From: a virus
Lineage: Duplodnaviria; Heunggongvirae; Uroviricota; Caudoviricetes
Direction: 5' to 3' (one strand)
Virus record (IMG/VR): IMGVR_UViG_2703719365_000009
Length of the DNA stretch: 42,461 nucleotides
The notes beneath the pieces are model-generated. The model saw only the letters and a program-made list of their open reading frames with translations, had not been told where the DNA came from and did not search any database. Shown here in pieces: positions 1,516-36,429 of this stretch. Position 1 is the first letter of the stretch; each line of letters starts with the position of its first letter. The translations under genes were made by a program, and so were the position numbers.

Positions 1516-1692
1516 TTACCCTTAAAATCTTCTTCAAAACATCTTCAAACTGCCAAAATGCTCACATAATCGATCTAACTATAATCAGTATGATAATCAT
1601 CATGAATTACTATTCAATAGCGTGATTATCTTGGGATGAGTCATATGATCTCTATATGTATTTACAGCACCACCTCATGATAGCGATGGCGC

Positions 1693-2304: not shown

Positions 2305-2460
2305 ATAACCCCCTATAAAACAAAGAAATTATCGATATCGCATTTAATTTCGATATGCTCGCAAAAAACCGTTGATATCGAATTATTTTGCGATTATGAT
2401 TTACCTAAATCGATAACCGGTTTTGATTATCGGTTCAGGTAAACATGAGAGGATCACACA
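2305..2460. promoter_or_regulatory. Repressor/Ner operator region with divergent early promoters; about six TCGATA-type repeats
   Basis: Repeats TTATCGATATCG 2329-2340, TTTCGATATGC 2348-2358, GTTGATATCGAAT 2371-2383, CGATTATGAT 2391-2400, AAATCGATAACC 2408-2419, TTGATTATCGG 2423-2433; candidate rightward promoter -35 TTGATA 2372-2377 and -10 TATGAT 2395-2400. Confidence 0.6.
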
Positions 2461-2727: not shown

Positions 2728-2737
2728 TGGGGGATGT

Positions 2738-4828: not shown

Positions 4829-4898
4829 AATAAAAAATAACCCGAGCGGCGACTCAGGTTATTTGATTAAACAAGGTATCAAATGAGAGGTTAATAAT

Positions 4899-5831
4899 AT
4901 GACTGATATTAACGATGTAATCAAGACCATTGATGAACTTATTGATGGCGGCGTACTGACGCAGTATGCCATCGCCAGAGAGGCGGGAATTTCCGACGGC
5001 ACATTATCGGCTTTCCGTAAGGGAAAATATAAAGGCGATAACGCTGCTGTGGCTGCTTCCCTGCGTTCCTGGTATGAGAACTGGAATAAACAAAGCGCAC
5101 TGCCGGAACCGCCGCAGTTTGTGGAAACGCAGACAGTCCAGGAGCTGCGCGCACTGTTTCAGGCGGTTCGTCTGATGGGCTGTATTAACGTTATTGTGGG
5201 CGTACCGGGTGTGGGTAAAACGGCCACTGCCCGTAATTACTGCCAGGAGCAACCAAACACCTGGATGATCACCCTGTCACCCGCGCACTCCAGCGTCACG
5301 GAGTGTCTGCTGGAGCTGGCCGATGCGCTGGGGATTGATTACACCCGCGCGAACAAAGGGGCATTATCCCGCGCCATCCGCCGTCGCCTGATGGGAACGC
5401 GTGGACTGGTGATTGTGGATGAGGCGGATCATCTGGGTATTGACGGTCTGGAGCAACTCCGGGCAATTCAGGACGCCACGGGGATCGGGATGGTGCTTAT
5501 TGGTAACCCGCGCGGATTGTTTAAAGGTGGACGCCGCGCCTTTGATGATTTATCGCGCCTGTTCAGCCGTCTTGCCCGTACAAAACAACTTCGCAAGGCC
5601 AAAAAGGCGGATGTGCTGGCCATTGCCAGGGCATGGGGTATCAGTGGTGAGGCCGAGCTGGCCGTCATGCAGGCTATCGCTGAAAAGCCGGGAGCGTTAC
5701 GCGTTCTGACACATACGCTTAACCAGGCGTGGCTCACCGCCAGCGGTGAAGGCGCGGCGCTGACAGAAAAACATATTAATGCGGCCTTTAAAGAGGTTTA
5801 TACCAACCCTGAATTACTCTCACAGGTGTGA
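4899..5831 (+). CDS. B: Transposition ATPase B (MuB-like AAA+ target DNA activator)
   Basis: 310 aa; Walker A GVPGVGKT; strong overall resemblance to MuB including PEPPQFVETQTV and VIVDEADHLG segments. Confidence 0.93.
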   Translation: MTDINDVIKTIDELIDGGVLTQYAIAREAGISDGTLSAFRKGKYKGDNAAVAASLRSWYENWNKQSALPEPPQFVETQTVQELRALFQAVRLMGCINVIVGVPGVGKTATARNYCQEQPNTWMITLSPAHSSVTECLLELADALGIDYTRANKGALSRAIRRRLMGTRGLVIVDEADHLGIDGLEQLRAIQDATGIGMVLIGNPRGLFKGGRRAFDDLSRLFSRLARTKQLRKAKKADVLAIARAWGISGEAELAVMQAIAEKPGALRVLTHTLNQAWLTASGEGAALTEKHINAAFKEVYTNPELLSQV

Positions 5832-6055
5832 TTATGGCGGTATTTAATATTCCTGATATTTACGGACGCTTTTACCTGGTTAATTTCGATAACGTGAAGG
5901 TGATTTCACTGGCCGAAAATAAAGAATGTGGCGATTTACTTTTTGAATTTAATGACCGCACACGAATGGTGATATCTGCCGGACTTGATCGCGAAGGTGC
6001 GACAGACGTTTACAGCGGAATATGCCGTTCTGTTGGTGCGAAACAAGTCAGCTAA
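5828..6055 (+). CDS. Small early protein at the Mu kil position (Kil-like by position and size)
   Basis: 75 aa; start overlaps B stop (ATGA coupling); Mu kil is about 74 aa immediately after B. Confidence 0.5.
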   Translation: MIMAVFNIPDIYGRFYLVNFDNVKVISLAENKECGDLLFEFNDRTRMVISAGLDREGATDVYSGICRSVGAKQVS

Positions 6056-6067
6056 ATGAGGTGTTAT

Positions 6068-6322
6068 ATGAATATGCAATCCTGCGGTAACAAAATGAAT
6101 TTATTCGACTCCCTGAACAGCGCGCGCCGTCTGACCGAACTTGCCGGTGCGGTACTGGAACGCAGTAAGCGCTACCCACAACGTTTTGCACTGAAAACCA
6201 CGCCGCCGGTAGGCAACGTGCAGGGAACCGGTGAAATTGAAATCACCATACAGACCAACGGCCTGCGCCGCCGTGTGAAGGCCACCCGCATCAGCGGCTG
6301 CACGGTTTACTGGGAGGTGTGA
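6068..6322 (+). CDS. Hypothetical early protein
   Basis: ORF with RBS GAGG before ATG 6068 (alternative ATG at 6056). Confidence 0.5.
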   Translation: MNMQSCGNKMNLFDSLNSARRLTELAGAVLERSKRYPQRFALKTTPPVGNVQGTGEIEITIQTNGLRRRVKATRISGCTVYWEV

Positions 6323-6323
6323 G

Positions 6324-6605
6324 GTGAAAAAAAATCTCATTGCATGGGCGTGGTCGAGTGGTCTTATTGAGTTTGGTTACGTCCTGCCGGAAGGTGCATT
6401 GCCGATAGTTGCCGGAAAGCCTGCCACGGTACGGCATGTGATTGAGGTTATGGCGCGTCATGGACGTGATGAACAGGAGCAGTTACTGGTTCCGGGGATA
6501 CCGGAAGCGGTGACGGAGGAAGAAGCCTTTAATGCCATGATTCGGTTCTGCCGTGAGGTCAGACGCCGGGTCAGTTATCCAAACAGAACGAGGACCAGAG
6601 GATGA
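6324..6605 (+). CDS. Hypothetical early protein
   Basis: 93 aa; GTG start with RBS GGAGGTG; tightly packed in early operon. Confidence 0.5.
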   Translation: MKKNLIAWAWSSGLIEFGYVLPEGALPIVAGKPATVRHVIEVMARHGRDEQEQLLVPGIPEAVTEEEAFNAMIRFCREVRRRVSYPNRTRTRG

Positions 6606-6874
6606 GTAAAGTCGTACGCATTATTTTCGAATACAAGGAGCACGTTATCCATAAAAACGCTGATGGAACAGTGCGCATGGGGGTAAGTCTGGACATACGT
6701 TCAACCGGGATAAAGCAGAAAGGTGATGGACCCGCCATGATTTTTGGGGTGGTTATGCTCGCGGAAAGCAGAGACTTTGCTGAACTTGTGGCAATGAAAG
6801 CCAGTGCGCTCATGAAAGATATGAGCATGCGTTCCGGGGTTATTAAAGGTAATGAATTTAATCAGCAGGGGTAA
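6602..6874 (+). CDS. Hypothetical early protein, paralog A of tandem pair
   Basis: 90 aa; N-terminus MSKVVRIIFEYKEHV similar to the next gene MSKVRVIFEFKHVSH; start overlaps upstream stop. Confidence 0.6.
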   Translation: MSKVVRIIFEYKEHVIHKNADGTVRMGVSLDIRSTGIKQKGDGPAMIFGVVMLAESRDFAELVAMKASALMKDMSMRSGVIKGNEFNQQG

Positions 6875-6878
6875 TTCC

Positions 6879-7172
6879 ATGAGCAAAGTACGCGTTATTT
6901 TTGAATTTAAGCATGTTTCGCATGACGAAAAACCGGCAGGCAATGACTGTGTTGAAGTGCATGAAAAGATTGGTGTGGATGTAAAAACAGAACGTGATAC
7001 GAATAACAGGCCGACGTCACTCTGTGACGTTTATGCAAGTATTCTCCAGTATCACAGCCCTGAAATTATTCAGTTTCTCTCAGCGGAATTTCAGGCATCT
7101 GTACAGGCTTTTGGGGCGGATGCCATCATTAAACGCCACCGCGTGCATAAAGCATCAGGCACACTGCAATAA
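6879..7172 (+). CDS. Hypothetical early protein, paralog B of tandem pair
   Basis: 97 aa from ATG 6879 with RBS AGGGG; paralogous N-terminus to 6602-6874. Confidence 0.6.
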   Translation: MSKVRVIFEFKHVSHDEKPAGNDCVEVHEKIGVDVKTERDTNNRPTSLCDVYASILQYHSPEIIQFLSAEFQASVQAFGADAIIKRHRVHKASGTLQ

Positions 7173-7183
7173 GGAAAAACAAA

Positions 7184-7714
7184 ATGGCAAAACGCGTTAC
7201 AAAATTAAAGGCCGCAGCAGAGGCGGCACCGCAGACCCGTGAAGAGGTCAGCCGCGATATCCGCACCCTGGGCGATATTCAGCGAGAGGCGCTGCGCCTG
7301 GAAACAGCGATGAATGATGAAGTGGCAGAAATCACCGCCCGTTATACGCCGCAGATTGAAAGCCTTAAAAAAGAAATCAAAGTGCTTTTTAAGGGGATTC
7401 AGGACTGGTGCAAAACCAACCGTGATGAGCTGACGAACGGCGGCAAAACCAAAACTGCCAATCTGACCACCGGAACGGTGTCATGGCGACTGGGGAATCC
7501 ATCATGCAGCGTCAGTCGTGATGTGGAAGGTGTGATTGAAATGCTGCGCCGTATGGGCCTTGAGCGTTTTATCCGCACGAAAGAGGAAGTGAACAAGGAA
7601 GCGGTCCTGGCGGAGCCGGATGCAGTGAAAGGCATTGCCGGTATTAAGGTGAATAAAGGCGCTGAAAGTTTTTATGTCGAGCCTTTTGAACAGGACGCCG
7701 GACTGAATAAATAA
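7184..7714 (+). CDS. gam: Gam-like host-nuclease inhibitor (DNA end-binding, Ku-like)
   Basis: 176 aa; segments RDELTNGGKTKTANL, SWRLG, FIRTKEEVNKEA match Mu Gam as recalled. Confidence 0.88.
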   Translation: MAKRVTKLKAAAEAAPQTREEVSRDIRTLGDIQREALRLETAMNDEVAEITARYTPQIESLKKEIKVLFKGIQDWCKTNRDELTNGGKTKTANLTTGTVSWRLGNPSCSVSRDVEGVIEMLRRMGLERFIRTKEEVNKEAVLAEPDAVKGIAGIKVNKGAESFYVEPFEQDAGLNK

Positions 7715-7811
7715 CACCGCATTAAATCTTTAAATATCACATCGTTTTAAGTATGGCGCTCGCGTCAGGGGACTGCCTGCGCCTGTAAACTGAAAATAAG
7801 GAACAGGATAT

Positions 7812-8354
7812 ATGGCATATTTTTATTTCAAATTAGACCGTGTGCAGACAAATAAATATTTCACCAAATATCAACAGACTGTTTTACCGCTACGCAACAG
7901 TATTCTTCGGGCATTACTGAAAAATACAGGCGCTGCCGGATTGCGCTTAAAGCCGTTTGCCATGGACGTAATCAGTGAGTTTTATTTTTCTGGTGCTCTG
8001 CCTGCGGGCTGGCGTAAGCGCGATGATGTGGCTTTTATCGGGGACGGACCGTGCTTTATTGCCAGACCTGATGAGTCATGCCCTGAAGGACCGGCGATTG
8101 CCGCAATGATTGAAGCCGCTGAACGCGAGTTAAGAAAGCGTCCTGATTTCCTTGTCTGGCTCTGTGAAAAGCTGGGGGTAATGAGAATCCCCTCCATGTT
8201 TAACATGGACTCCTGGTGGACCCCGTCGCTCTCCCGTGATGCCCTGTGCGTGGTGTTTAAAGTAGGCGCTTATGGCAGGGAAATAAAAGGGGGTATTCCT
8301 GAAGAATGCCAGGAGATTAAACATTCTGAATATGTGGCGCTGACGGAGGAATAA
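7812..8354 (+). CDS. Hypothetical early protein
   Basis: 180 aa ORF with RBS AAGGAACAGG. Confidence 0.55.
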   Translation: MAYFYFKLDRVQTNKYFTKYQQTVLPLRNSILRALLKNTGAAGLRLKPFAMDVISEFYFSGALPAGWRKRDDVAFIGDGPCFIARPDESCPEGPAIAAMIEAAERELRKRPDFLVWLCEKLGVMRIPSMFNMDSWWTPSLSRDALCVVFKVGAYGREIKGGIPEECQEIKHSEYVALTEE

Positions 8355-8357
8355 TTC

Positions 8358-8891
8358 ATGATTGATGCAAAAGTGCTTGAAGGGGTTAAAAACTGGCTGA
8401 GTATTTACGGGCGTCTGACCTGCGGCATTCTGGCTGAAAAAATGAATATGCCGCCATCCTCGATGGTTTATTTTCTGCGTGATGCGGTCGATGCCGGGGT
8501 GCTGACGGAATGTAACGGTTTTTATGATATTCCGCGTCCCCGCCCGGTGCAGCCGATTCGTCGCAAATGCAGCCAGGAAGGTGCGGCTGATGATGTTCAG
8601 TGGTGCAGCTTCAGAAAATCCCTGCCGTGGATTGAGGGGCATGATATTCCGTCAATGGCGTGGGAATTTGCTCAGGGCGTTCTGACCTGTGAAACCGTTT
8701 ATGTGGTGGCTGAAGTTGATGAGCAGGCCATGAAAGAAGGCGTGCCCCAGTTTGTGATGGCGTATATCGACATACGCCTGGGTGTCATTATCTGCGGTTT
8801 AAGCGGCTGGAATATCACCTCGCGCGTTCTGCGTTACCTGATTGTTGACCGGACGGCCGCGCCTGCCGGGATATCTGCGGAGGTGGCGTAA
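8358..8891 (+). CDS. Hypothetical early protein
   Basis: 177 aa ORF 3 nt after upstream stop. Confidence 0.55.
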   Translation: MIDAKVLEGVKNWLSIYGRLTCGILAEKMNMPPSSMVYFLRDAVDAGVLTECNGFYDIPRPRPVQPIRRKCSQEGAADDVQWCSFRKSLPWIEGHDIPSMAWEFAQGVLTCETVYVVAEVDEQAMKEGVPQFVMAYIDIRLGVIICGLSGWNITSRVLRYLIVDRTAAPAGISAEVA

Positions 8892-9406
8892 TGTTCTTTA
8901 AAACATCAAACCCTTCCGCGCTGGCCGCGTGGCAAAAATATCAGCAGGACTGCCAGAAAGTTAAGGATGAGGCAAAACGCCTTGAGGCCGTGCTGAATGT
9001 TGCGTGCCGGTCGGTATTTGTATCCGGTATCAGTGGCTTTTGTTTTAAAGGGCTGCGCTTTATGGATGACAAATATCCTTTTCATCGCGACTTATGGCGA
9101 AAACCGACTGCGTCGAATGGCTGGAGCTGCACACCGCGCACATCACGTATTCCCAAAGCCCTGCGCGTTGCCTCTGACGAACTTAACAGTCTGTGGCGTG
9201 AATATTCGCCCGTCACGTATGCCAGAACCGATGCACTGTTGTTCTGGCTGGGTATTGATTTCTCGGCAATCATGTTTGGCCCTGTGAAGTGGTTCTGCGT
9301 TGACGATGTGATTTACCTTGAGTGCGGCGTAAAACCCGCAAATCAGAAAATGACCGAAATGCTGTCTGATGAGTTTTATGCTGCTGAAAAGCGAGTCAGG
9401 GGGTGA
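8891..9406 (+). CDS. Hypothetical early protein
   Basis: 171 aa; start overlaps upstream stop. Confidence 0.55.
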   Translation: MFFKTSNPSALAAWQKYQQDCQKVKDEAKRLEAVLNVACRSVFVSGISGFCFKGLRFMDDKYPFHRDLWRKPTASNGWSCTPRTSRIPKALRVASDELNSLWREYSPVTYARTDALLFWLGIDFSAIMFGPVKWFCVDDVIYLECGVKPANQKMTEMLSDEFYAAEKRVRG

Positions 9407-9409
9407 TGC

Positions 9410-9961
9410 ATGATGAAATTACAACCCATGGGACTAAAAGGTCGCGCCCCCGCTCATGTCCGTCCGTGGACACCTGAAGAAGATGCGCTGCTGATTGCGC
9501 TTTATTCATCCACCCCGGTTAAGGATATTGCTGCCAGAATAAAAAGAACTGTCTGGGCTGTATATAACCGGACTGGTGTATTGCGCAGTTCATACCCGGA
9601 GTTACTGAAATATAAACACCCAAGATTTACACCTGATGAAGATAAGTTTATTCGAAAAAATGCCAGAACAATGACCTGCCAGCAAATGGGAGAATATCTC
9701 GGACGTAATAAAGATTCTGTCAGATGTCGGGCAGGAATGATTGGTGCTGGATTAACAAAGTGCGGAGAGTTACGCCCCGGCACGCGCATATCTGATGATG
9801 ATGTACGTCTTATACGTGCGCTGCGTGATTCCGATTACCCACGCCGTCTGTCATTCCGGGAAATTGGCGAAAAGTTTGGAATATCTGAACATTCTGCTCA
9901 CGCAGTTTATTACCGTCGCCGGACTGCCGAGGACGCTGTATTACGGGAGTTAACGCCATGA
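9410..9961 (+). CDS. Early protein with three internal Myb/SANT-like helix-turn-helix repeats (putative DNA-binding)
   Basis: 183 aa; repeats WTPEEDALLIALY (about res 20), FTPDEDKFIRKN (about res 73), ISDDDVRLIRAL (about res 127). Confidence 0.55.
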   Translation: MMKLQPMGLKGRAPAHVRPWTPEEDALLIALYSSTPVKDIAARIKRTVWAVYNRTGVLRSSYPELLKYKHPRFTPDEDKFIRKNARTMTCQQMGEYLGRNKDSVRCRAGMIGAGLTKCGELRPGTRISDDDVRLIRALRDSDYPRRLSFREIGEKFGISEHSAHAVYYRRRTAEDAVLRELTP

Positions 9962-10287
9962 TAACGACCTTATTTGTTGAATCAGATGAACCTCTTGTGT
10001 GTGCCGCCGGAATGCCGCTCTGTGGCGGAACGCTGACCGGTGTTTATTTCGGGGATTTACGCGGTTATCCCTGGCATTCACTGAATGATGCTTTCCCACC
10101 TGATATGGAGGCTGTCGTGCTGATTGTTCAGTATGGTCACCGTCAGGAGCTGCGCATCGGCCATATGGGGTATGAAGGCTTTTTTGTTGATGAAGAAACC
10201 GGAGCCTGCCTTGAAGATGAAGACGGACAGGTGACGCACTGGTGTCATATTTCGGCTTTACCGGAATTACGGGAGGTGAATGCGTGA
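9958..10287 (+). CDS. Hypothetical early protein
   Basis: 109 aa; ATGA overlap with upstream gene. Confidence 0.5.
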   Translation: MITTLFVESDEPLVCAAGMPLCGGTLTGVYFGDLRGYPWHSLNDAFPPDMEAVVLIVQYGHRQELRIGHMGYEGFFVDEETGACLEDEDGQVTHWCHISALPELREVNA

Positions 10288-10634
10288 GAAGTTATATTGA
10301 TAATGAAAAGCTGGAGACAATAAGCGACTGTCTTAGCTTGCTGGCAAAAATCAAAGAAACTATTGAAGAGATTAAATTTCAGCTTGAATACGAACCCTGT
10401 GGCGATGATACATGGCGTAACTCTGCCAGAAAAGCACTGGCTGTCTTTCAGAAACAACGCCGGACTGTTGAGTACCGACTTGCTGTATTGCGCCAGGAGG
10501 AAAAGGAAAGAAATATAAGACGTCATGAACTCGTTAATGATTTTCTTGTTCGTGAATTAAAGGAGCGTGTGCCGGAGTCGGTATTTTTTGAGTGTGAGGC
10601 TGTTGCCCGTAGCAAAGCACTGGAAACTGATTAA
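10284..10634 (+). CDS. Hypothetical early protein (charged, probably coiled-coil)
   Basis: GTG 10284 overlapping upstream stop with RBS GGGAGGTG (alternative ATG 10242 would overlap 46 nt). Confidence 0.45.
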   Translation: MRSYIDNEKLETISDCLSLLAKIKETIEEIKFQLEYEPCGDDTWRNSARKALAVFQKQRRTVEYRLAVLRQEEKERNIRRHELVNDFLVRELKERVPESVFFECEAVARSKALETD

Positions 10635-10646
10635 ACAGGCAGGTGA

Positions 10647-10982
10647 ATGATGAGTATTGAATTAAGATCGTCTTATGAATATCGTAAAATTCTCATCGCC
10701 GGAGGCATGAAACCGGAAGATGCAGAAAAAATCGTTTCTTTTATGGATAAAGAATGTGACAAACGGGATATGCCAGAAATTATTATGGATGACATGATTC
10801 TGCATTCAGCCGTAGCGTTAAGCCCGTTATGGATTGTGCATTCTCTTGCTGAAATTGCCAAAGGCACCGATAAACAGGCAGCTGTTGCTGCCCTTCAGAC
10901 GCTTAATGAAATGCGTATATCTCCACGCCCGACATTAATACATATGATTCTGTCCAGCATGGAGGATAAAGCAAATGAATAG
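10647..10982 (+). CDS. Hypothetical early protein
   Basis: 111 aa; RBS AGGTGA before ATG. Confidence 0.5.
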   Translation: MMSIELRSSYEYRKILIAGGMKPEDAEKIVSFMDKECDKRDMPEIIMDDMILHSAVALSPLWIVHSLAEIAKGTDKQAAVAALQTLNEMRISPRPTLIHMILSSMEDKANE

Positions 10983-11172
10983 TCTACCCGCTGGATGGGC
11001 GAGGCCACTAATGGCCAGGAAGCATCATTTTTTTAAAACAGGCGAAAATATCAGTATATGTGGACGGTGGTTATATCTGGCTCATAATCGCGAGCCGGAT
11101 ACATTTGAAAGCCCTGATGACTGTGCCGAATGCCGCAGAAGAGTGAATAAGGAGAAAGATAATGGACAATAG
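10975..11172 (+). CDS. Small protein with possible zinc-ribbon (Cys pairs)
   Basis: 65 aa; C-x-large gap-CAEC arrangement; overlaps neighbours. Confidence 0.4.
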   Translation: MNSLPAGWARPLMARKHHFFKTGENISICGRWLYLAHNREPDTFESPDDCAECRRRVNKEKDNGQ

Positions 11173-11458
11173 TTCTCTGTTGTTCTGGTGCTTATATATC
11201 ACATCCTTTTTCGGTGCATTTGTTATTACCCGGTGGTTATGTCGAAAAATCATCTGCTTTTTTGATAAAAGATATCCGGTTGAACGGGCGGCTGATGCAC
11301 TCATTCAGCAGGCCATTGTGTTATATAGCGGTGAATTTTTCTGCCGAATAACAACCAGAGATGGCTGGCACATAATGATTATTCCGCCAACACACCATGT
11401 CCGGTGGGATGAGGCAGAAAAGGCTTTCCATGTCCGTAAAAAGGTAAATACGGTATGA
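11162..11458 (+). CDS. Small membrane protein (one predicted TM helix)
   Basis: 98 aa; hydrophobic segment LLFWCLYITSFFGAFVIT. Confidence 0.45.
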   Translation: MDNSSLLFWCLYITSFFGAFVITRWLCRKIICFFDKRYPVERAADALIQQAIVLYSGEFFCRITTRDGWHIMIIPPTHHVRWDEAEKAFHVRKKVNTV

Positions 11459-11964
11459 GAGGAAAACTGATATCCGCCATTCATGTGGCAAAGCGCGAGC
11501 TTGCCCTTGATGATGAGGCTTATACATTCGCGCTGCTGGCCGCCACCGGCAAAACCAGCTGCCGGGATATGTCACCGGATGAGTTATCCCGCGTGCTGGA
11601 TGTTTTCAAAAAACGCGGTTTTAAAGTGCGTCAGAACCCGGTTAACCGGGCCTTAAAACCGGGTACGGTGACCGCTAAAATTCGCGCCATCTGGAAGGTG
11701 ATGCACCGGCAGGGCTTTATCTCTGATGGTGCGGAAACCGCCCTTAACCGCTGGGTGAAATCGCAGACGGCCGCGCAAAACGGCGGCGAAGGTGTGGCAA
11801 ACTGGCAGTGGCTGGAGCAACACCCCGCCCTGGCCTCAGATGTGCTGGAGCGTCTCAAGCGATGGCACCGCCGCAAAATGCTGGCCGCGATGGGAATGCC
11901 CGAACGCACGCTGATGGGGTATGACGCCGTTTGCAGGCAGTATGAAAAATCACTTCCCCGTTAA
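11455..11964 (+). CDS. GemA-like protein (Mu gp16 family)
   Basis: 169 aa; N-terminal KRELALDDEAYTFALLAATGKTSCRDMSPDELSRVLDVFKKRGFKV resembles Mu gp16/GemA family as recalled. Confidence 0.6.
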   Translation: MRGKLISAIHVAKRELALDDEAYTFALLAATGKTSCRDMSPDELSRVLDVFKKRGFKVRQNPVNRALKPGTVTAKIRAIWKVMHRQGFISDGAETALNRWVKSQTAAQNGGEGVANWQWLEQHPALASDVLERLKRWHRRKMLAAMGMPERTLMGYDAVCRQYEKSLPR

Positions 11965-11970
11965 CCCCAA

Positions 11971-11998
11971 ATCCCGCCATAACGCGGGATTTTTATTT
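11971..11998 (+). terminator. Rho-independent terminator ending the early operon
   Basis: ATCCCGC-CATAAC-GCGGGAT hairpin followed by TTTTATTT. Confidence 0.7.
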
Positions 11999-12033
11999 TA
12001 AACTTACCGGGAACGCGAGAACCGGAGGCTGAT

Positions 12034-12459
12034 ATGGCAGAAACTCAGATGAGCATGTTTGGTGGTGACAGTGAGCAACTGCACGCCCTTATCGACCGCC
12101 TTGATGACATCCCTGATGATGTTCTCAAAAAGAACTGGCCGCGGACCCTGTCAGAACTGGTTGAAGTCACCGGCGCAGAACTTCAGCGTCAGGGGATTGA
12201 GCCGGTACTGGCCGGCAAACTGGCACGCAAGGTGGCTGCGGCTCAGGCAGCCTATATGGGCGGACGGGGTTATTACCTGCCGGTCGGGGAATCTCTCTTT
12301 GCCGAGCTGCGAAACAATGAGATATTTTCGCGCTGGGACCGGGGCGAGAAAATTGAATCCCTTCGCCGCCATTACCGGATGTCAGAAACCCAGATTTATA
12401 CCGTCATACGTGAACAGCGCCGTCTGCATCTGGCAAGAACACAACCGCCACTTTTCTGA
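12034..12459 (+). CDS. Mor/C-family transcription activator (C-like by position, immediately upstream of lys)
   Basis: 141 aa; C-terminal YLPVGESL...IYTVIREQRRL resembles Mor/C family HTH region as recalled; RBS GGAGG. Confidence 0.75.
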   Translation: MAETQMSMFGGDSEQLHALIDRLDDIPDDVLKKNWPRTLSELVEVTGAELQRQGIEPVLAGKLARKVAAAQAAYMGGRGYYLPVGESLFAELRNNEIFSRWDRGEKIESLRRHYRMSETQIYTVIREQRRLHLARTQPPLF

Positions 12460-12530
12460 TATTCCGCAAAGCCTGCCGCCTTTCCTTCACCGTTACGCTG
12501 ACTCAGAGAACATCATGAGACAGCGTAACA

Positions 12531-13031
12531 ATGCCAAAACTCCCCGCACCACTGCGTAAAAAGCTGATTGCCCTTGTTCTGGCCGGTGCCGGGACGTTCA
12601 CGATTGCCACGCATTACACCGGTTACTGGGAAGGGAAAGAAAACTCCACGTATATCGATCCCACCGGTACACCCACCATCTGTTACGGCCATACCGGCCC
12701 GGATGTGAAACCGGGTATGACCCTGACGGATGAAGAATGCCTGGAACTACTGGAAAAGGACATGAAATGGGCCTTTGCGGCCATTGATCGGCGTGTTCAG
12801 GTGCCGCTTACCCGTGGTCAGACGGTGGCGCTGGCTTCGTGGATCTTCTGGGCCGGTGAAACGAACTTTCGCAACTCCACGCTTCTGCGCCTGATCAATG
12901 CCGGGCAGATGCCCGCGTCCTGTAAGCAGTATATCCGCTGGATTTATTCAAAGGGGGTGAAGCTCCCCGGCCTTGAGGCCCGCCGTTCGGCGGATGAATG
13001 GTTATGTCGCTACGATTTGCCGAAAGTCTGA
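12531..13031 (+). CDS. lys: Endolysin, lysozyme-type with N-terminal signal-anchor-release (SAR) segment
   Basis: 166 aa; Gly/Ala-rich weakly hydrophobic N-terminus LIALVLAGAGTFTIATHY followed by YWEG...D...T lysozyme-like catalytic region. Confidence 0.8.
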   Translation: MPKLPAPLRKKLIALVLAGAGTFTIATHYTGYWEGKENSTYIDPTGTPTICYGHTGPDVKPGMTLTDEECLELLEKDMKWAFAAIDRRVQVPLTRGQTVALASWIFWAGETNFRNSTLLRLINAGQMPASCKQYIRWIYSKGVKLPGLEARRSADEWLCRYDLPKV

Positions 13032-13104
13032 ACCGCTTCTGGCGACCGATCATGATAGCGCTGCTGTGTGCGGTACTGCTGTTACGGGGTGTCCTGTGGC
13101 TGCG

Positions 13105-13494
13105 GTGAATAATGCCTTACCGGCCCTGATTGCCGGGGCGTGCATGGCGGCGCTGGGGATTATCGCTGTACTGGTTGCCGCGATATGGGGAATGCACCAG
13201 AAGACGCAGCGCCTTGAAGACAATAATCAGGTGCTTGTGCGTGAGCGGGATGAGGCGCGTCAGGTGCTGGCAAATCAGCAGCACACCCTGCAACTCATTT
13301 CACAAATCAGTGAGGCGGCCACGAATGAAAAACAACAGAACATTCAGCACAGCGAGGGGCAGCAGAGCGTTGTCCGCCGGTCGCTGGCAGCAGTGCCTGC
13401 GGCCTCTGCCCCTGTTCCTGATGATGTGGCTGATCGGGTGCGCCGGGCCGTCTGTGAAATACGTGCCTGTGAAGCCGGTGCCGATCCCCGCTGA
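13105..13494 (+). CDS. Putative i-spanin (Rz-like inner membrane spanin); start uncertain (GTG 13105 or ATG 13144)
   Basis: N-terminal TM segment ALPALIAGACMAALGIIAVLVAAIW then charged coiled-coil-like region; directly after endolysin. Confidence 0.55.
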   Translation: MNNALPALIAGACMAALGIIAVLVAAIWGMHQKTQRLEDNNQVLVRERDEARQVLANQQHTLQLISQISEAATNEKQQNIQHSEGQQSVVRRSLAAVPAASAPVPDDVADRVRRAVCEIRACEAGADPR

Positions 13495-13696
13495 ATGGCT
13501 GGCTGACTGCCTGGTCCCTCCTGCGCCGGAGCCGTTCACGTTTGGGGCATCGGTCACTTACAACCTGCAACTGCTGGCGGTGATCAAGAACTGCAACGTG
13601 GACAAGGCCAGTATTCGTCGTCTGGAGACGCGGCGACAACATGAATTTACTGATATGGCCGGAACGCCTGCTGTTCCGGCAGGAAAAACGAAGTAA
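13325..13696 (+). CDS. Putative o-spanin (Rz1-like outer membrane lipoprotein), overlapping the i-spanin in another frame
   Basis: Signal with lipobox-like LIGC then proline-rich region PVKPVPIPAEW...PPAPEP; overlapped gene arrangement. Confidence 0.5.
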   Translation: MKNNRTFSTARGSRALSAGRWQQCLRPLPLFLMMWLIGCAGPSVKYVPVKPVPIPAEWLADCLVPPAPEPFTFGASVTYNLQLLAVIKNCNVDKASIRRLETRRQHEFTDMAGTPAVPAGKTK

Positions 13697-13705
13697 GGAA
13701 AAGGT

Positions 13706-13933
13706 ATGGATGATTCAGATCGTGCTCAGGCTGTGATGGAGCGGGGATCAGAACGCGCCCTTTGTAACCGGCTGACACGTAAGCGCCAGGCAGTGGATAC
13801 GCCGGGCAGACGTGTCTGCGCGGACTGTGGTGGAGAGATCCCCGCCGCACGTCTTGTTGCTGTGCCTGATGCCATCCGTTGTGTGAACTGCCAGAACATC
13901 ATGGAGGCCCGTAATGTGGGTCAGCATCGTTAA
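13706..13933 (+). CDS. TraR/DksA-family C4 zinc-finger protein
   Basis: 75 aa; CADCGGEI ... CVNCQ zinc finger. Confidence 0.7.
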   Translation: MDDSDRAQAVMERGSERALCNRLTRKRQAVDTPGRRVCADCGGEIPAARLVAVPDAIRCVNCQNIMEARNVGQHR

Positions 13934-14222
13934 AGATTATGTTGTGCCGATCCTTTCGGCGACGGCAACCGCTGGCGGGATATTCATGGCGCTGATGCGC
14001 AAAACGTTTGTCCCCCGCGAGGCCTTTGAAAAACTCTCCGACCGCGTTGAGAAGGTGGAAACCCGCCTGTCGTCACTGCCGACAGAAGCCGAGGTCAACC
14101 GTCTGAATGTGGAAATCGTGACCCTGCGGGGTGAACTGAAAACCACGAACGCCACGCTCCGCTCTGTCTCCTATCAGAACGAACTGCTGCTGGAGCAGGC
14201 TGTAAGGAAAAAAACGCAATGA
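13914..14222 (+). CDS. Small membrane/coiled-coil protein (Mu gp25 position)
   Basis: 102 aa; N-terminal hydrophobic helix then coiled-coil; RBS GGAGG. Confidence 0.5.
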   Translation: MWVSIVKDYVVPILSATATAGGIFMALMRKTFVPREAFEKLSDRVEKVETRLSSLPTEAEVNRLNVEIVTLRGELKTTNATLRSVSYQNELLLEQAVRKKTQ

Positions 14223-14509
14223 GTGATTTCATTACTGAAGATCAGCGTCTGGTCATTCTGCGGTCGCTGGCAGATTACAACGGTGAACTGGGTGAATCCG
14301 TGCTCCAGGACTGTCTGGATGATTACGGCCACCGCGTGTCCCGCGACACCGTTCACACCCACATTGCCTGGCTTGCCGAGCAGGGACTGGTGCGCAAACG
14401 CGTTCTGATTAACGGTTATTTCATCGCGGAACTGACCGGTCGTGGGCAGGATGTGGCGGAAGGCCGGGCCTGCGTTCCGGGTGTGAAGAAACCACGCGCA
14501 AGGGGGTAA
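14219..14509 (+). CDS. Small protein (Mu gp26 position)
   Basis: 96 aa; overlaps upstream stop. Confidence 0.5.
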   Translation: MSDFITEDQRLVILRSLADYNGELGESVLQDCLDDYGHRVSRDTVHTHIAWLAEQGLVRKRVLINGYFIAELTGRGQDVAEGRACVPGVKKPRARG

Positions 14510-14511
14510 CG

Positions 14512-15093
14512 ATGGACAAGCCGACGCGTGGTCGTGTACGCAAGGTGGATTTGCTCCCCGACAGCATCCGTAAGCCGCTGCTGGAAATGCTGCGTGAAAA
14601 ACGTCTGACGCAGGTCCAGATCCGCGAGGAAATCAACCGTCTGATCCGAGAGGCGGGCCTGCCGGAAGAGCAGCAGCTTTCACCGGCGGCCATCAGCCGG
14701 GAAGCCTCCCGTAATGAGCTGATTGCCCGTAACCTGCGTGATTTACGCGAGCAGACAAAAGCCATGATGGCCGAACTGGGGGACAAGCCAACCGGTGAAA
14801 CCACAGCGCTGATTCTGGAAATGTCCCGCGCCCTGATGTACCGCCGCCTGCGTGCCGCGACCGAATCTCTGAACAGCGACAGCGACGTGGATATGCGCCT
14901 CATCAAAGACATCCTCCTGTCAGCACAGCGTGCGGAAAGTGCCGCCGAGCGCAGCATTAAGCGTGAAAAAGAAATCCGGGCCGCATTTGCTGAAGAGATG
15001 GCAAACGCGGTCACCGACGAGCTGCGCGGCGTGGACGGGATGAGTGAACAGCTTGAGTCCCGTATTAAGGGGATTCTGTTGGGTAAAGCCTGA
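14512..15093 (+). CDS. Terminase small subunit (Mu gp27-like)
   Basis: 193 aa, charged, immediately upstream of large terminase; RBS AAGGGGG. Confidence 0.7.
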   Translation: MDKPTRGRVRKVDLLPDSIRKPLLEMLREKRLTQVQIREEINRLIREAGLPEEQQLSPAAISREASRNELIARNLRDLREQTKAMMAELGDKPTGETTALILEMSRALMYRRLRAATESLNSDSDVDMRLIKDILLSAQRAESAAERSIKREKEIRAAFAEEMANAVTDELRGVDGMSEQLESRIKGILLGKA

Positions 15094-16757
15094 TGAATAA
15101 CGCCGAAGAACTCTCACCCTTACTGACGAATACCGTCTCCACCCGCAAAATTGATCTGGCCGGTGAAAAAGCCCTGCTGGGCGTGGATGTGCCGGACAGC
15201 CTTGATTTGCCCGGTGATATGCCGGTGTTTCTGGATTATCAGGCCCGCTGGTTTGAGGATGAAAGCGAGGTCTGCATCGCGGAAAAATCCCGCCGCACCG
15301 GGCTTACCTGGGCGGAAGCCGGGCGTAACGTCATTACCGCTGCAAAACCGAAGCGGCGTGGTGGCCGCAATGTGTTTTATGTGGGGTCAAAGCAGGAGAT
15401 GGCGCTGGAATATATTTCTGCCTGCGCACTGTTCTCCCGTGCCTTTAACCAGCTGGCAGATGCTGATGTGTATGAGCAGACCTTCTGGGATCGGGATAAA
15501 AAAGAAGAAATTCTGACCTACATGATCCGCTTTCCGAACAGTGGATTCAAAATTCAGGCACTGTCTTCCCGTCCGTCAAACCTGCGCGGCCTTCAGGGGG
15601 ATGTGGTGATTGATGAAGCCGCGTTCCACGAGTCACTGGATGAGCTTCTCAAGGCGGCAATGGCGCTTACCATGTGGGGCGCGCGCGTGCGTATTATCTC
15701 CACGCATAACGGCGTCGATAATCTGTTTAATCAGTACATTCAGGAAGCCCGCGAGGGGCGCAAGGATTACAGCGTCCACCGCATTACCCTGGATGATGCC
15801 ATTGCGGACGGGCTGTACCGTCGTATCTGTTATGTCACCGGCCGCGAATGGTCACCGGAAAGCGAGCAGAAGTGGCGTGATGATCTCTACAAAAACGCCC
15901 CGACCCGTGAGGATGCCGACGAGGAATACGGCTGTATCCCGAAAAAATCCGGCGGTGCCTATATTCCTCACGCGCTTATTGAAATGGCGATGATCCGCGA
16001 CATCCCGATTCTGACGTTTGAAGCCCCGGACGACTTCATCAGCCGTGCCGCATGGCTGCGTGAATCGGAGGTTTTAACCTGGTGTGAAGAACATTTAAAA
16101 CCGCTTTTAGAGGCGTTAAATCCCCGTTCCCGCTTCAGCTTCGGGGAAGACTTTGCCCGCACCGGAGACCTGTCCTGCTTTGTGCTGCTGGAAATCACTG
16201 AATCCCTGGCAAAACGCGAGGTGTTTCGCGTGGAGCTGCGCAACCTGCCGTATGCCCAGCAGGAGCAGGTGATGATGTACATCCTGACCCGCGTTCCGGC
16301 GCTGGTCGGTGCGGCGTTCGACGCCACCGGTAACGGCGGCTATCTGGCCGAAGCCGCGCTGCTGGCCTTTGGCCCGGACATCATCGACTGCGTGATGTTA
16401 TCGCCGAAGTGGTATGGCGAGTGGATGCCAAAACTGAAGGCCGAGTTTGAGGATCAGAATATCCTCGTCGCCCGCCATCAGACCACGCTTGATGATTTGC
16501 GCCATGTGAAGGTGGTGAACGGTATCCCGCAAATCGACAAGGGGCGTACGAAGGACCAGAACGCAACGGCTGTGAACGCCCGCCGCCATGGTGATTTTGC
16601 CGTGGCGCTCTGTATGGCAAACCGGGCGTCATACATGGAGGGCTTCATCCTGGATGAATCAGCCTGTCAGGCGCTGCCGGAGCGGTCGCGGGCAATGGAG
16701 GGCGGTTATCGTGATGACGATGAGGCATATCATGAATTTGATCGGGGGTGCTGGTAG
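15093..16757 (+). CDS. Terminase large subunit (Mu gp28-like)
   Basis: 554 aa; position and size; start overlaps upstream stop. Confidence 0.85.
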   Translation: MNNAEELSPLLTNTVSTRKIDLAGEKALLGVDVPDSLDLPGDMPVFLDYQARWFEDESEVCIAEKSRRTGLTWAEAGRNVITAAKPKRRGGRNVFYVGSKQEMALEYISACALFSRAFNQLADADVYEQTFWDRDKKEEILTYMIRFPNSGFKIQALSSRPSNLRGLQGDVVIDEAAFHESLDELLKAAMALTMWGARVRIISTHNGVDNLFNQYIQEAREGRKDYSVHRITLDDAIADGLYRRICYVTGREWSPESEQKWRDDLYKNAPTREDADEEYGCIPKKSGGAYIPHALIEMAMIRDIPILTFEAPDDFISRAAWLRESEVLTWCEEHLKPLLEALNPRSRFSFGEDFARTGDLSCFVLLEITESLAKREVFRVELRNLPYAQQEQVMMYILTRVPALVGAAFDATGNGGYLAEAALLAFGPDIIDCVMLSPKWYGEWMPKLKAEFEDQNILVARHQTTLDDLRHVKVVNGIPQIDKGRTKDQNATAVNARRHGDFAVALCMANRASYMEGFILDESACQALPERSRAMEGGYRDDDEAYHEFDRGCW

Positions 16758-20256: not shown

Positions 20257-20432
20257 TTGTTTAAGGTATGCAAATGCATTACCTTACCCCCTTCAGGCGC
20301 GTGTCGTGATTTTCTAACCTGTATTTAACGGGCTTTAAAATCTGCGTGAAGCGCCTTTGTATTTTTCCCCTGGAAGCACTTCCTGAAATCCCGCAAAACC
20401 CGCCCTGAAAATTCCCGGCTTATGCTGCCGGA
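20257..20432 (+). promoter_or_regulatory. G-I intergenic region: candidate late promoter and candidate central strong gyrase site
   Basis: 176-bp gap at the midpoint of the element; contains TCCCGCAAAACCCGCCC (20389-20405), similar to the motif upstream of lys. Confidence 0.4.
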
Positions 20433-36330: not shown

Positions 36331-36429
36331 GACGCTCTCTTTGTTGGGCCTTTACTGAATTAACGCAAAATGGCGTTTATCGGTCTGTGGATATGATAAT
36401 TCAGTTTATTCAGGAACAGGCTGATTATT

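What the first reader, a model, noticed from the sequence alone, without database searches (positions are those of the whole stretch)
11455..12459. Single Mor/C-family activator; no separate Mor gene recognisable
Mu has two paralogous activators, Mor as the last early gene and C after a terminator. Here gemA is followed directly by a terminator (11971-11998) and then one 141-aa Mor/C-family gene next to lys. No second family member is apparent among the early ORFs. The early-to-late cascade may therefore be wired differently, or another early protein plays the Mor role.
Basis: partly seen in the sequence, partly recalled or inferred. Interest (0 to 1): 0.4.

Follow-up and report, generated by a model that had tools for sequence, protein, structure and literature searches.

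The report
Mu-like prophage with one late activator
This Mu-like prophage of E. coli carries a single Mor/C-family transcription activator, an orthologue of Mu's late activator C; that is the usual state of Mu-like phages, so phage Mu with its two activators is the exception.

Summary
GemA (11455-11964) is followed by a strong intrinsic terminator (stem 11969-11992, U-run to 11999). Then comes one 141-aa Mor/C-family gene (12034-12459), followed by the endolysin gene. A family HMM that finds both Mor and C in Mu finds only this gene in all six frames of the window. Profile-profile tests of 24 other ORFs found no hidden homologue.

The protein is a C orthologue, with 96.7 bits to Mu C against 40.7 bits to Mor. 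It shares a 7-leaf clade with Mu C that excludes Mor.

The missing Mor is not unusual. Of 80 phage records with a Mor/C gene, the count implies only 14 have two, and every two-copy record listed is a Mu relative. All 33 related viral contigs and six other Mu-like phages have one.

Two late promoters, upstream of lys and of gene I, share an 18-bp box 38 nt before a -10 hexamer. Box and -10 are conserved in relatives while the spacer varies.

How the activator gene is transcribed past the terminator is unresolved. I favour attenuated read-through from the early promoter (about 45%) over a promoter of its own (about 30%).

This is ordinary and of low interest.

The parts
2372..2400 (+). Candidate early promoter (Pe equivalent), TTGATA-17-TATGAT, between the repressor gene (1693-2304, minus strand) and ner (2461-2727)
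   Evidence: It is the best sigma-70-like match (10 of 12) in 1400-16000. The flanking genes were identified by Pfam as Phage_CI_repr and HTH_35. Function is inferred.
9410..9961 (+). 183-aa early protein with a Myb/SANT-like N-terminus and a C-terminal helix-turn-helix; the only other clear DNA-binding candidate late in the early operon; not a Mor/C member
   Evidence: Pfam gives only weak Myb and HTH hits. PHROG 323 'transcriptional regulator, D5-like' matches at 2e-52. It aligns with Mu gp9. hhalign against the Mor/C profile gives probability 29.6% on the HTH only, and profile-profile comparison gives 6%.
11455..11964 (+). gemA (gp16 family), the last gene before the terminator
   Evidence: Pfam GemA PF06252 at E 4e-29; 42.8% identical to Mu GemA by tblastn.
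11969..11999 (+). Intrinsic terminator: stem AAATCCCGC/GCGGGATTT, loop CATAAC, then TTTTTATTTT
   Evidence: Found by the consensus scan. RNA fold -13.5 kcal/mol, z = -4.4. Stem and U-run are conserved in relatives whose activator protein is 84-100% identical, while the loop varies (CATAAC, CACAAC, CACAGC). No Rfam family matches.
12034..12459 (+). The only Mor/C-family activator gene of the prophage, an orthologue of Mu C (late activator); Shine-Dalgarno GGAGG at 12025-12029
   Evidence: Pfam Mor at 2.8e-32. PHROG 532 'late transcriptional activator' at 3e-45. PDB search gives Mu C (9l0x) 96.7 bits against Mor (1rr7) 40.7 bits. 40% identical to Mu C and 31% to Mor. The neighbour-joining clade with Mu C excludes Mor.
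12456..12499 (+). Candidate late promoter Plys: box CTGATATTCCGCAAAGCC (12456-12473), no -35 match, -10 TACGCT (12494-12499)
   Evidence: The 18-mer CTGAWATYCCGCAAARCC occurs exactly only here and at 20383, and the 17-mer scan found nothing with 1-3 mismatches. Box and -10 are conserved and the spacer varies in the 84% group. If transcription starts near 12506, the box spans about -50 to -33, like Mor and C sites centred at -43.5 (PMC2582627). Activity is inferred.
12531..13031 (+). Endolysin gene (lys), first late gene
   Evidence: ORF; PGAP names it 'lysozyme' in 231 E. coli genomes; same position as Mu lys.
20383..20426 (+). Candidate late promoter PI: box CTGAAATCCCGCAAAACC (20383-20400), -10 TATGCT (20421-20426), directly upstream of the protease gene I (20433-21557)
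   Evidence: Exact box match with the same 38-nt offset to a TAnnnT hexamer. Conserved box and -10 with a variable spacer in the 84% group. Gene I matches Pfam Mu-like_Pro at 1e-76.
36355..36397 (+). Weaker third box-like site, CTGAATTAACGCAAAATG, 37 nt before TATGAT, between gin and a 679-aa SASA/DUF6645 gene
   Evidence: 5 mismatches of 18 with a correctly placed TAnnnT. The total number of such hits equals that in shuffled sequence, so this site is only a lead. Its position matches that of Pmom after gin in Mu.

Best explanation
The window holds an apparently intact Mu-like prophage, roughly 1.35-40.7 kb, that runs a two-tier lytic programme instead of Mu's three tiers.

The early operon (ner, A, B ... 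gemA) is transcribed from a repressor-controlled promoter near 2372-2400 and ends at an intrinsic terminator just after gemA.

The next gene, 12034-12459, encodes the phage's only Mor/C-family protein. It is an orthologue of Mu C, not of Mor.

By analogy with Mu C, I infer that it binds an 18-bp box (CTGAWATYCCGCAAARCC) lying about -50 to -33 at promoters that have a -10 hexamer but no -35. There it would recruit sigma-70 RNA polymerase and switch on the lysis/packaging operon (Plys, 12456-12499) and the head operon (PI, 20383-20426).

No Mor step exists or is needed, and this is the common layout of Mu-like phages.

What is shown: gene identities, the single copy, the orthology to C, the terminator, and the conserved box plus -10 pairs. 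What is inferred: binding and activation by the protein, and how the activator gene itself is expressed.

For that last step I commit, at about 45%, to attenuated read-through of the terminator from the early promoter. The hairpin would then act as a damper or timer in place of the Mor step. A separate factor-dependent promoter overlapping the hairpin is the main alternative, at about 30%.
For: Single copy:
- Pfam, phmmer and a 148-member family HMM over all six frames find only this ORF.
- The positive control finds both genes in Mu.
- hhalign of 25 ORFs and a profile-profile test are negative.

C orthology:
- 96.7 bits to Mu C against 40.7 bits to Mor.
- tblastn to Mu C gives 1e-20. Mu Mor against the 100%-identical copy of this protein in LC727881 gives 7e-6.
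- A 7-leaf neighbour-joining clade holds the window protein and Mu C and excludes Mor.
- The gene sits directly before lys, as in Mu.
- It has both an N-terminal QMSMF and a C-terminal QPPLF, resembling the two clamp-binding motifs that C has; Mor's C-terminus reads QPSLL (PMC12867686).

Ordinariness:
- 80 phage records give 94 matching places, so 14 records have two copies if none has more. All 11 two-copy rows listed are Mu, D108, SfMu, Yersinia vB_YpM or PhiR68_1.
- HS6, Vibrio martha, BcepMu, SuMu, PhiKM and Pmp9 each have one HMM hit.
- All 33 IMG/VR relatives have one within up to 10 kb on either side.
- The same gene order occurs in 231 of 5,426 complete E. coli genomes.

Late promoters: exact 18-mers occur only upstream of lys and of I, at an identical offset from TAnnnT. 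Box and -10 are conserved and the spacer varies in the 84% group.

Activity of the phage type: an LC727881 feature records a target duplication at a Mu-like insertion in an Stx2c phage. Here the prophage splits a lambdoid J gene.

Read-through:
- The consensus scan finds no sigma-70-like promoter in the 69-bp gap.
- There is no late-type box in register upstream of the gene.
- In BcepMu, HS6 and PhiKM the single activator gene overlaps or abuts the preceding early gene, so there it is simply the last early gene.
- In relatives L037 and L040 the U-run after the hairpin is only 3 T.
Against: - The hairpin looks like an efficient terminator (-13.5 kcal/mol, 9 U in 10), similar to Mu t9.2. From my recollection of the Mu literature, t9.2 is tight enough that C expression depends on Mor.
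- Relatives L021 and L028 carry two copies of the hairpin with a minus-strand cargo gene between them, upstream of the activator gene. This makes pure read-through less plausible there.
- GGGATTTTTATTTTAAACTT next to the activator gene is invariant across the 100% and 84% groups, while the following ~16 nt are replaced. That pattern fits a promoter with -10 TAAACT as well as it fits a terminator.
- The box differs from Mu C's TTAT-N5-6-ATAA site, so DNA recognition is not demonstrated.
- Only two, perhaps three, boxes were found, against four late promoters in Mu.
- The neighbour-joining tree has no support values. Its members were sampled by similarity to the window protein.
Confidence: 0.75

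Rival explanations
1. The activator gene has its own 'middle-type' promoter that overlaps the terminator hairpin, as Mu Pm overlaps t9.2. It would be switched on by an early function that is not a Mor/C protein, for example GemA, the 183-aa Myb/HTH protein, or replication itself. A Mor-like step would then exist, carried out by something else.
For: - In Mu the annotated Pm (9163-9233) overlaps the terminator (9179-9200).
- The hairpin, U-run and AAACTT are invariant next to the activator gene across the 100% and 84% groups, giving a conserved TAAACT hexamer.
- The 84% group has TGTAAT exactly where a -10 would sit if the 16-bp dyad CCCGC-N6-GCGGG were centred at -43.5. I read this from the sequences. 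That geometry is the one described for Mor and C sites (PMC4390567, PMC2582627).
- L021 and L028 keep a second hairpin copy next to the activator gene, behind a first terminator and an antisense cargo gene.
- Vibrio martha, SuMu and L038 also have a hairpin followed by a -10-like hexamer before their single activator.
- Pmp9 has a perfect TATAAT in its 130-bp gap.
Against: - In this window the position matching TGTAAT reads AACGCG, so no -10 sits in the -43.5 register.
- With TAAACT as the -10, the dyad would be centred near -30, a position typical of operators for repression rather than of Mor/C-type activation.
- The distance from hairpin to the -10-like hexamer varies between relatives by 25-29 nt.
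- TAnnnT hexamers arise easily in the AT-rich stretch after a terminator.
- The consensus scan finds no promoter.
- No candidate activator has any supporting evidence.
Confidence: 0.3
2. The activator gene is positively autoregulated. A little read-through protein binds the hairpin DNA, whose left arm AAATCCCGC is identical to the core of the PI box, and boosts its own transcription.
For: The 9-mer AAATCCCGC is shared by the hairpin arm (11969-11977) and the PI box (20386-20394). Mu Plys also contains AATCCCGC. L038 of the 57% group has AATCCC motifs both upstream of its activator gene and in its Plys.
Against: - The upstream region matches the 18-bp box at only 13 of 18 positions by my own alignment.
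- No TAnnnT lies at the +38 offset, and the sequence at that offset is not conserved in the 84% group.
- In the 84% group the PI box reads AAGTCCCGC while the hairpin stays AAATCCCGC, so the two do not co-vary.
- The Mu-like CCATAAC in the window's loop is CCACAAC or CCACAGC in relatives.
- The motif sits 5-8 bp out of register relative to Plys and PI.
Confidence: 0.08
3. A diverged Mor homologue is hidden among the early ORFs, and the three-tier Mu cascade is intact.
For: The 183-aa ORF gives hhalign probability 29.6% to the C-terminal HTH of the family. Mu gp9, of the same class, gives the best sub-threshold HMM hit in Mu (E 0.09).
Against: - The profile-profile probability is 6%, over 37 HTH columns only.
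- It has no dimerisation domain and no GG-x3-Y-x-P linker.
- Mu has the same kind of protein in addition to Mor.
- All other ORFs score below 5%.
- The six-frame HMM search is negative, with the next best hit at E = 7.5.
Confidence: 0.03
4. The prophage is a defective deletion derivative of a Mu-type phage that lost mor and the middle operon.
For: Relative to Mu, about 1.2 kb (mor, E18, E19, gp20) is missing between gemA and the C-type gene.
Against: - The same junction is found in all 29 IMG/VR loci of the 84-100% groups (or with extra cargo inserted), in the 52-57% group, and in Pasteurella phage Pmp9.
- It is present in 231 E. coli genomes.
- The phage type makes fresh insertions with a target duplication.
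- Mor's nearest relative in the tree is the single activator of a Vibrio phage rather than C, so Mor looks like an acquisition in the Mu lineage and not a loss here.
- All late genes appear as long open reading frames.
Confidence: 0.05

Closest known systems
Phage Mu protein C (Mup21), late-gene activator; structures 9l0x and 9vw8
   Same: - Same Pfam family, and the best hit among solved structures (96.7 bits); 40% identity over the full length.
- Same size and same position directly upstream of lys and downstream of the early terminator.
- Acidic N-half and basic C-half, GG-x3-Y-x-P linker, and both terminal clamp-motif-like sequences.
- Candidate target promoters have a -10 but no -35, with a box at about -50 to -33.
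   Different: - The gene is not preceded by a Mor-dependent Pm and small middle-operon genes.
- The candidate box CTGAWATYCCGCAAARCC differs from Mu C's TTAT-N5-6-ATAA.
- Only two clear boxes were found, against four late promoters in Mu.
Phage Mu protein Mor (Mup17), middle-operon regulator; structure 1rr7
   Same: Same family and fold class, with 31% identity. Like mor in Mu, this is the next gene after gemA.
   Different: - Much weaker similarity than to C (40.7 bits).
- Not in the same clade.
- Separated from gemA by a terminator, where Mu's mor overlaps gemA.
- Followed by lys rather than by a middle operon.
Single Mor/C activators of other Mu-like phages: Pasteurella Pmp9, Vibrio martha 12B12, BcepMu gp01, SuMu_16, Pseudoalteromonas HS6, E. 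coli PhiKM
   Same: One family member per genome, next to or near gemA. Pmp9 has the same order (gemA, gap, C-like at 40% identity, lysis gene). Vibrio martha and SuMu also have a terminator-like hairpin before the activator.
   Different: In BcepMu, HS6 and PhiKM the gene overlaps or abuts the upstream early gene with no terminator. Several of these proteins are Mor-like rather than C-like in sequence.
Mu t9.2 / Pm arrangement (terminator overlapped by an activator-dependent promoter)
   Same: A hairpin terminator ends the early operon immediately upstream of the transcription unit that contains the C-type gene.
   Different: No Mor gene and no recognisable Mor site. No -10 hexamer at the Pm-like distance in this window. 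The gap to the start codon is only 69 bp.

Membership tests
[quoted passage not shown] | Significant match to the family profile over the whole domain | tested here: met
   PF08765 at E 2.8e-32, 111.3 bits against a cut-off of 24.9, profile positions 2-107 of 107. My own 148-member HMM gives 1.5e-50.
[quoted passage not shown] | Small protein (about 100-150 aa) with an acidic N-terminal half and a basic C-terminal half (PMC2582627) | tested here: met
   141 aa; net charge -4 for residues 1-70 and +4 for residues 71-141.
[quoted passage not shown] | Conserved linker between the dimerisation and DNA-binding domains (GG-x3-Y-x-P) | tested here: met
   G76, Y81 and P83 are invariant and G77 nearly invariant (at least 90%) across 91 diverse members, and all four are present here.
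[quoted passage not shown] | C-terminal helix-turn-helix DNA-binding domain and dimer or tetramer fold, as in 1rr7 and 9l0x | tested here: inconclusive
   The sequence aligns through the HTH of Mu C without gaps. No structure was predicted or compared.
[quoted passage not shown] | Clamp-binding motifs: N-terminal Qx[D/E][L/M]F and C-terminal QPDLF (PMC12867686) | tested here: inconclusive
   N-terminal QMSMF has S where the consensus has D/E. C-terminal QPPLF has P where the consensus has D. They are similar, not exact, and binding was not tested.
[quoted passage not shown] | Activates sigma-70 RNA polymerase at promoters lacking a -35 by binding a site centred near -43.5 | not testable with these tools
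   Only indirect support: two conserved box plus -10 pairs with fitting geometry upstream of lys and I.
Orthologue of Mu C (late activator) rather than of Mor | Closer in sequence to C than to Mor, and grouped with C in a tree | tested here: met
   96.7 against 40.7 bits. tblastn to Mu C gives 1e-20. Mu Mor against the 100%-identical copy of this protein in LC727881 gives 7e-6. The 7-leaf neighbour-joining clade with C excludes Mor, without support values.
Orthologue of Mu C (late activator) rather than of Mor | Gene lies downstream of the early-operon terminator and immediately upstream of the lysis gene | tested here: met
   Terminator at 11969-11999, gene at 12034-12459, lys at 12531. In Mu, C is at 9963-10385 and lys at 10480.
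Orthologue of Mu C (late activator) rather than of Mor | Target promoters carry the Mu C site TTAT-N5-6-ATAA | tested here: not met
   The shared box is CTGAWATYCCGCAAARCC, a different sequence with similar placement. With 40% protein identity a changed specificity is expected.
Mu-type three-tier cascade (Pe -> Mor -> Pm -> C -> late promoters) | Two Mor/C paralogues, one inside the early operon | tested here: not met
   One hit only in six frames; hhalign and profile-profile tests negative.
Mu-type three-tier cascade (Pe -> Mor -> Pm -> C -> late promoters) | Activator-dependent middle promoter (dyad centred at -43.5 plus a -10) upstream of the C-type gene | tested here: inconclusive
   The hairpin contains a 5-6-5 dyad, but this window has no -10 in register (AACGCG). 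The 84% relatives have TGTAAT there.

The most novel reading that the evidence does not exclude
The conserved hairpin after gemA may be more than a terminator. It could double as the operator of a Mor-independent 'middle' promoter for the C-type gene. That promoter would be switched on by an early function outside the Mor/C family or by replication.

The same 24-bp hairpin may also serve as the repeat that flanks exchangeable cargo cassettes, because it is duplicated around two different minus-strand genes in relatives L021 and L028.
Probability: 0.25. Interest if true: 0.45.

Novelty: already known. Interest (0 to 1): 0.2.

Why it matters
The result corrects a Mu-centred expectation. The Mor-then-C double switch is peculiar to Mu and its closest relatives, and this widespread E. 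coli prophage type (231 of 5,426 complete genomes) uses the common one-activator design.

It also gives concrete, testable late-promoter candidates: an 18-bp box upstream of lys and of gene I.

One small open question remains. It also arises for at least three other single-activator phages examined (Vibrio martha, SuMu and the IMG/VR relative L038). How is an activator gene that sits behind the early-operon terminator switched on without Mor?

The practical value is modest. It lies in annotation of Mu-like prophages in Shiga-toxin-producing E. coli, where this phage inserts into and disrupts other prophages.

Tried and rejected
1. Hidden Mor. Pfam, phmmer, a family HMM over six frames and hhalign of 25 ORFs were all negative. 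The profile-profile test of the 183-aa Myb/HTH protein gave 6%. I rejected this reading.

2. Autoregulation through a late-type box in the hairpin. The shared 9-mer AAATCCCGC looked promising. It fails on register, on the missing -10, and on the lack of co-variation in the 84% group.

3. The Mu-like CCATAAC in the hairpin loop as a C half-site. It is a window-specific variant, reading CACAAC or CACAGC elsewhere, so I rejected it.

4. A Pm-like promoter in the -43.5 register. It is present as TGTAAT in the 84% group but absent in this window, so the question stays open.

5. More late promoters (PP and Pmom equivalents). A box scan with up to 7 mismatches plus a -10 constraint gave as many hits as shuffled sequence. 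Only the site at 36355 is worth noting.

6. Scans for distant relatives with their genomic context. Three family alignments had no stretch conserved enough to search with. The genome-contig scan found nothing. The viral-contig scan gave 33 loci, all with activator proteins 52-100% identical.

7. Rfam on 11300-12700 gave nothing.

8. Literature. I found no open-access paper that states the single-activator rule or maps transcripts of this prophage type, and Morgan et al. 2002 (PMID 11922669) is not held.

9. IS or cargo insertions as a clue. L027 is simply an IS4-family insertion into the hairpin and tells nothing.
Full report
**What is in the window**

The window holds a Mu-like prophage. From left to right the genes are:
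- a CI-type repressor (1693-2304, minus strand)
- ner (2461-2727)
- transposase A (2738-4828) and B (4899-5831)
- gam (7184-7714)
- a Mu gp11-like gene (8358-8891)
- gemA (11455-11964)
- a Mor-family gene (12034-12459)
- the endolysin gene (12531-13031)
- head and tail genes
- gin (35770-36330)
- com and mom (39652-40588)

The prophage interrupts the J tail-tip gene of a lambdoid prophage. The N-terminal part of J is at 42-1349 and the C-terminal part lies within 40581-41369.

Over the stretch searched (window 9400-13100) the DNA is 95.6% identical to the 'inserted Mu-like phage' annotated in an Stx2c phage record. A feature in that record notes a target duplication caused by the insertion.

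The gemA-activator-lys stretch occurs in 231 of 5,426 complete E. coli genomes. PGAP names the genes there 'gp16 family protein', 'Mor transcription activator family protein' and 'lysozyme'.

**Checking the observation**

All parts of the observation hold.
- GemA matches PF06252 at 4e-29, and the 141-aa ORF matches PF08765 (Mor) at 2.8e-32.
- Between them lies a 9-bp-stem hairpin (11969-11992) followed by TTTTTATTTT. It folds at -13.5 kcal/mol, z = -4.4 against shuffles.
- No Rfam family matches the region.

The second-member question was tested in four ways.
- The other 19 ORFs of the left arm that were scanned give no Pfam Mor hit at E <= 1.
- phmmer with Mu Mor, Mu C and the window protein against all 969 stop-to-stop ORFs in six frames showed only the one ORF. 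The Mor-query rows were cut off in that output.
- An HMM of 148 diverse family members, taken from a search of 1.8 billion representatives, hits it at 1.5e-50, with the next best at E = 7.5.
- The same HMM finds both C (6e-50) and Mor (1.7e-35) in Mu, so it would have seen a Mor-like gene.

hhalign of 25 ORFs against the family profile gives below 5% probability for every ORF but two. One is the activator itself (100%). The other is the 183-aa ORF at 9410-9961 (29.6%, confined to the helix-turn-helix).

With an alignment of that ORF's homologues, the profile-profile probability falls to 6% over 37 columns.

That protein belongs to PHROG 323 ('D5-like regulator'). Mu gp9 carries the same 'D5-like' label, and the two proteins align. 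Mu therefore has this kind of protein as well as Mor.

**Which activator it is**

The protein is a C orthologue.
- It is 40% identical to Mu C and 31% to Mor.
- Against solved structures it scores 96.7 bits to C (9l0x) and 40.7 bits to Mor (1rr7).
- In a neighbour-joining tree it shares a 7-leaf clade with Mu C that excludes Mor. Mor's nearest neighbour is the single activator of Vibrio phage martha. The tree has no support values, and its sample was drawn by similarity to the window protein.

It also has the family's other hallmarks:
- an acidic N-half and a basic C-half
- the conserved GG-x3-Y-x-P linker
- N-terminal QMSMF and C-terminal QPPLF, which resemble the two clamp-binding motifs recently described for this family (PMC12867686)

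Its position, directly before lys and after the early terminator, is that of Mu C. Relative to Mu, the segment mor-Pm-E18-E19-gp20 is simply absent.

**Is a single activator unusual?**

It is not.

A tblastn of Mu Mor against 50,697 phage records finds 80 records and 94 places. If no record has more than two places, 14 records have two copies. All 11 two-copy records listed are Mu, D108, SfMu, Yersinia vB_YpM phages or PhiR68_1.

The other 66 records have one. They include Vibrio, Burkholderia, Pseudomonas, Shewanella, Pasteurella and Pseudoalteromonas phages and E. coli PhiKM.

The HMM finds one hit each in HS6, Vibrio martha, BcepMu and SuMu (whole genomes) and in PhiKM and Pmp9 (partial stretches). 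It also finds one in each of 33 IMG/VR relatives of this prophage.

BcepMu's own annotation already calls its gene 'Mu protein C / Mor gp17'. Pasteurella phage Pmp9 has the same order as here: gemA, a gap, a C-like gene, then a lysis gene.

**How it probably works downstream**

The intergenic regions upstream of lys and of the protease gene I share an 18-mer. It reads CTGATATTCCGCAAAGCC at 12456 and CTGAAATCCCGCAAAACC at 20383.

Each copy lies 38 nt before a TAnnnT hexamer (TACGCT and TATGCT). Neither promoter has a -35 match.

The degenerate 18-mer occurs exactly at these two places only. The 17-mer scan found nothing with 1-3 mismatches anywhere in 42 kb.

In relatives whose activator is 84% identical, the box and the -10 are conserved while the spacer differs. 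That is the pattern expected of a real promoter.

If transcription starts about 7 nt after the hexamer, the box spans roughly -50 to -33. This matches the published placement of Mor and C sites, a 16-bp element centred at -43.5 that replaces the -35 (PMC4390567, PMC2582627).

The sequence differs from Mu C's TTAT-N5-6-ATAA (PMC12867686). At 40% protein identity that is not surprising.

Relatives at 57% identity have a Mu-like box (GTAATCCCC, 28 nt before TATCCT) upstream of lys.

A third, weaker box lies after gin at 36355. It is only a lead.

**How the activator gene itself is expressed**

This step is unresolved. Three readings were examined.

(a) Read-through of the terminator from the early promoter.
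- In favour: no promoter-like site in the 69-bp gap and no late-type box in register.
- In favour: other phages have the single activator simply as the last early gene.
- In favour: relatives L037 and L040 have a weakened U-run.
- Against: the hairpin looks efficient.
- Against: relatives L021 and L028 have two hairpin copies and an antisense cargo gene in front of the activator gene.

(b) An own promoter overlapping the hairpin, as Pm overlaps t9.2 in Mu.
- In favour: the hairpin plus TTTTTATTTTAAACTT is invariant next to the gene.
- In favour: the 84% group has TGTAAT exactly where a -10 would lie if the dyad CCCGC-N6-GCGGG were centred at -43.5.
- In favour: Vibrio martha, SuMu, L038 and Pmp9 show similar hairpin or -10-like features.
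- Against: in this window the same position reads AACGCG.
- Against: with TAAACT as the -10, the dyad sits near -30.
- Against: the spacings vary between relatives.

(c) Autoactivation. The hairpin arm AAATCCCGC equals the PI box core. It is out of register, has no -10 at the right offset, and does not co-vary with the PI box in the 84% group.

I put these at about 45%, 30% and 10%.

**Comparison with what is known, and novelty**

[quoted passage not shown] The cascade is not a member of the Mu-type three-tier scheme, because the defining second paralogue was tested for and is absent. It is instead the ordinary one-activator design of Mu-like phages.

Identical proteins are already in public databases under the family name. 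The finding is therefore real but already known in kind.

Its residual interest is the open question of what gets transcription past, or started at, the hairpin.

**Limits**

No transcript data were available. Promoter calls rest on sequence and on relatives with activator proteins 52-100% identical. The scans for more distant relatives with genomic context failed. The statement that Mu C expression strictly needs Mor, despite possible t9.2 read-through, comes from my recollection of the Mu literature and not from a paper read here.

Noticed in passing
window 42-1349 and 40581-41369 (lom-like gene from 41437): The Mu-like prophage sits inside the J tail-tip gene of a lambdoid prophage. Pfam Phage_Tail_Tip positions 1-74 lie on the left fragment. 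Positions 69-138 plus the J C-terminal receptor-binding domain lie on the right fragment. Repeats of TTTGATACCGAC near 1350-1510 look like transposase-binding sites of the left end.
   Followed up: partly
L021 2570-2593 and 3290-3313; L028 8835-8858 and 9480-9503: In two relatives the 24-bp hairpin is present twice. The two copies flank two different minus-strand cargo genes (140 aa and 113 aa), each with its own promoter-like site, between gemA and the activator gene. The hairpin may mark a cassette-exchange hotspot.
   Followed up: partly
L027 8595-9932: An IS4-family transposase gene (445 aa) is inserted into the left arm of the hairpin in one relative, destroying the stem.
   Followed up: no
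L037 7627-8106, L039 and L040 (activator 52-57% identical): These relatives carry about 470 bp with small, possibly membrane-protein ORFs between the hairpin and the activator gene. The layout recalls Mu's middle operon (E18-E19-gp20-C) but has no Mor. Upstream of their activator gene lies TACAAT, flanked by two GATC sites.
   Followed up: no
window 20421-20435: The -10 hexamer of the candidate PI promoter ends only 6 nt before the annotated ATG of the protease gene I, and there is no clear Shine-Dalgarno sequence. The mRNA may be leaderless, or the true start codon may lie elsewhere. The arrangement is conserved in the 84% group.
   Followed up: no
window 36430-38469: A 679-aa protein with a SASA (sialate O-acetylesterase-like) domain and DUF6645 is encoded right after gin, where Mu has com and mom. 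A weak late-box-like site at 36355 precedes it.
   Followed up: no
window 39080-39651: A 572-bp non-coding stretch upstream of com and mom is rich in GATC sites and short palindromes, for example TCGATCGTTTTTGTCGATCGA. It recalls the Dam/OxyR-controlled mom regulatory region of Mu. No late box was found there.
   Followed up: no
window 9410-9961: A 183-aa early protein with a Myb/SANT-like repeat and a C-terminal HTH, variously named 'AsnC family' or 'SANT/Myb domain-containing' in databases. It is conserved in E. coli and Salmonella relatives. It is a longer relative of Mu gp9, and its HTH faintly resembles that of Mor/C.
   Followed up: yes
L004 (Vibrio phage martha) 24531-24611; L006 (SuMu) 9448-9616: Two distant single-activator Mu-like phages also have a terminator-like hairpin with a U-run between the gemA-side gene and the activator gene. 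Placing the activator behind the early terminator is therefore a recurrent design.
   Followed up: partly
L007 (Mu, AF083977) 8151-8217 in record coordinates: The Mu record annotates a 'semi-early promoter' just upstream of gemA. In this window the preceding ORF overlaps gemA by 4 nt, so there is no intergenic space for an equivalent.
   Followed up: no
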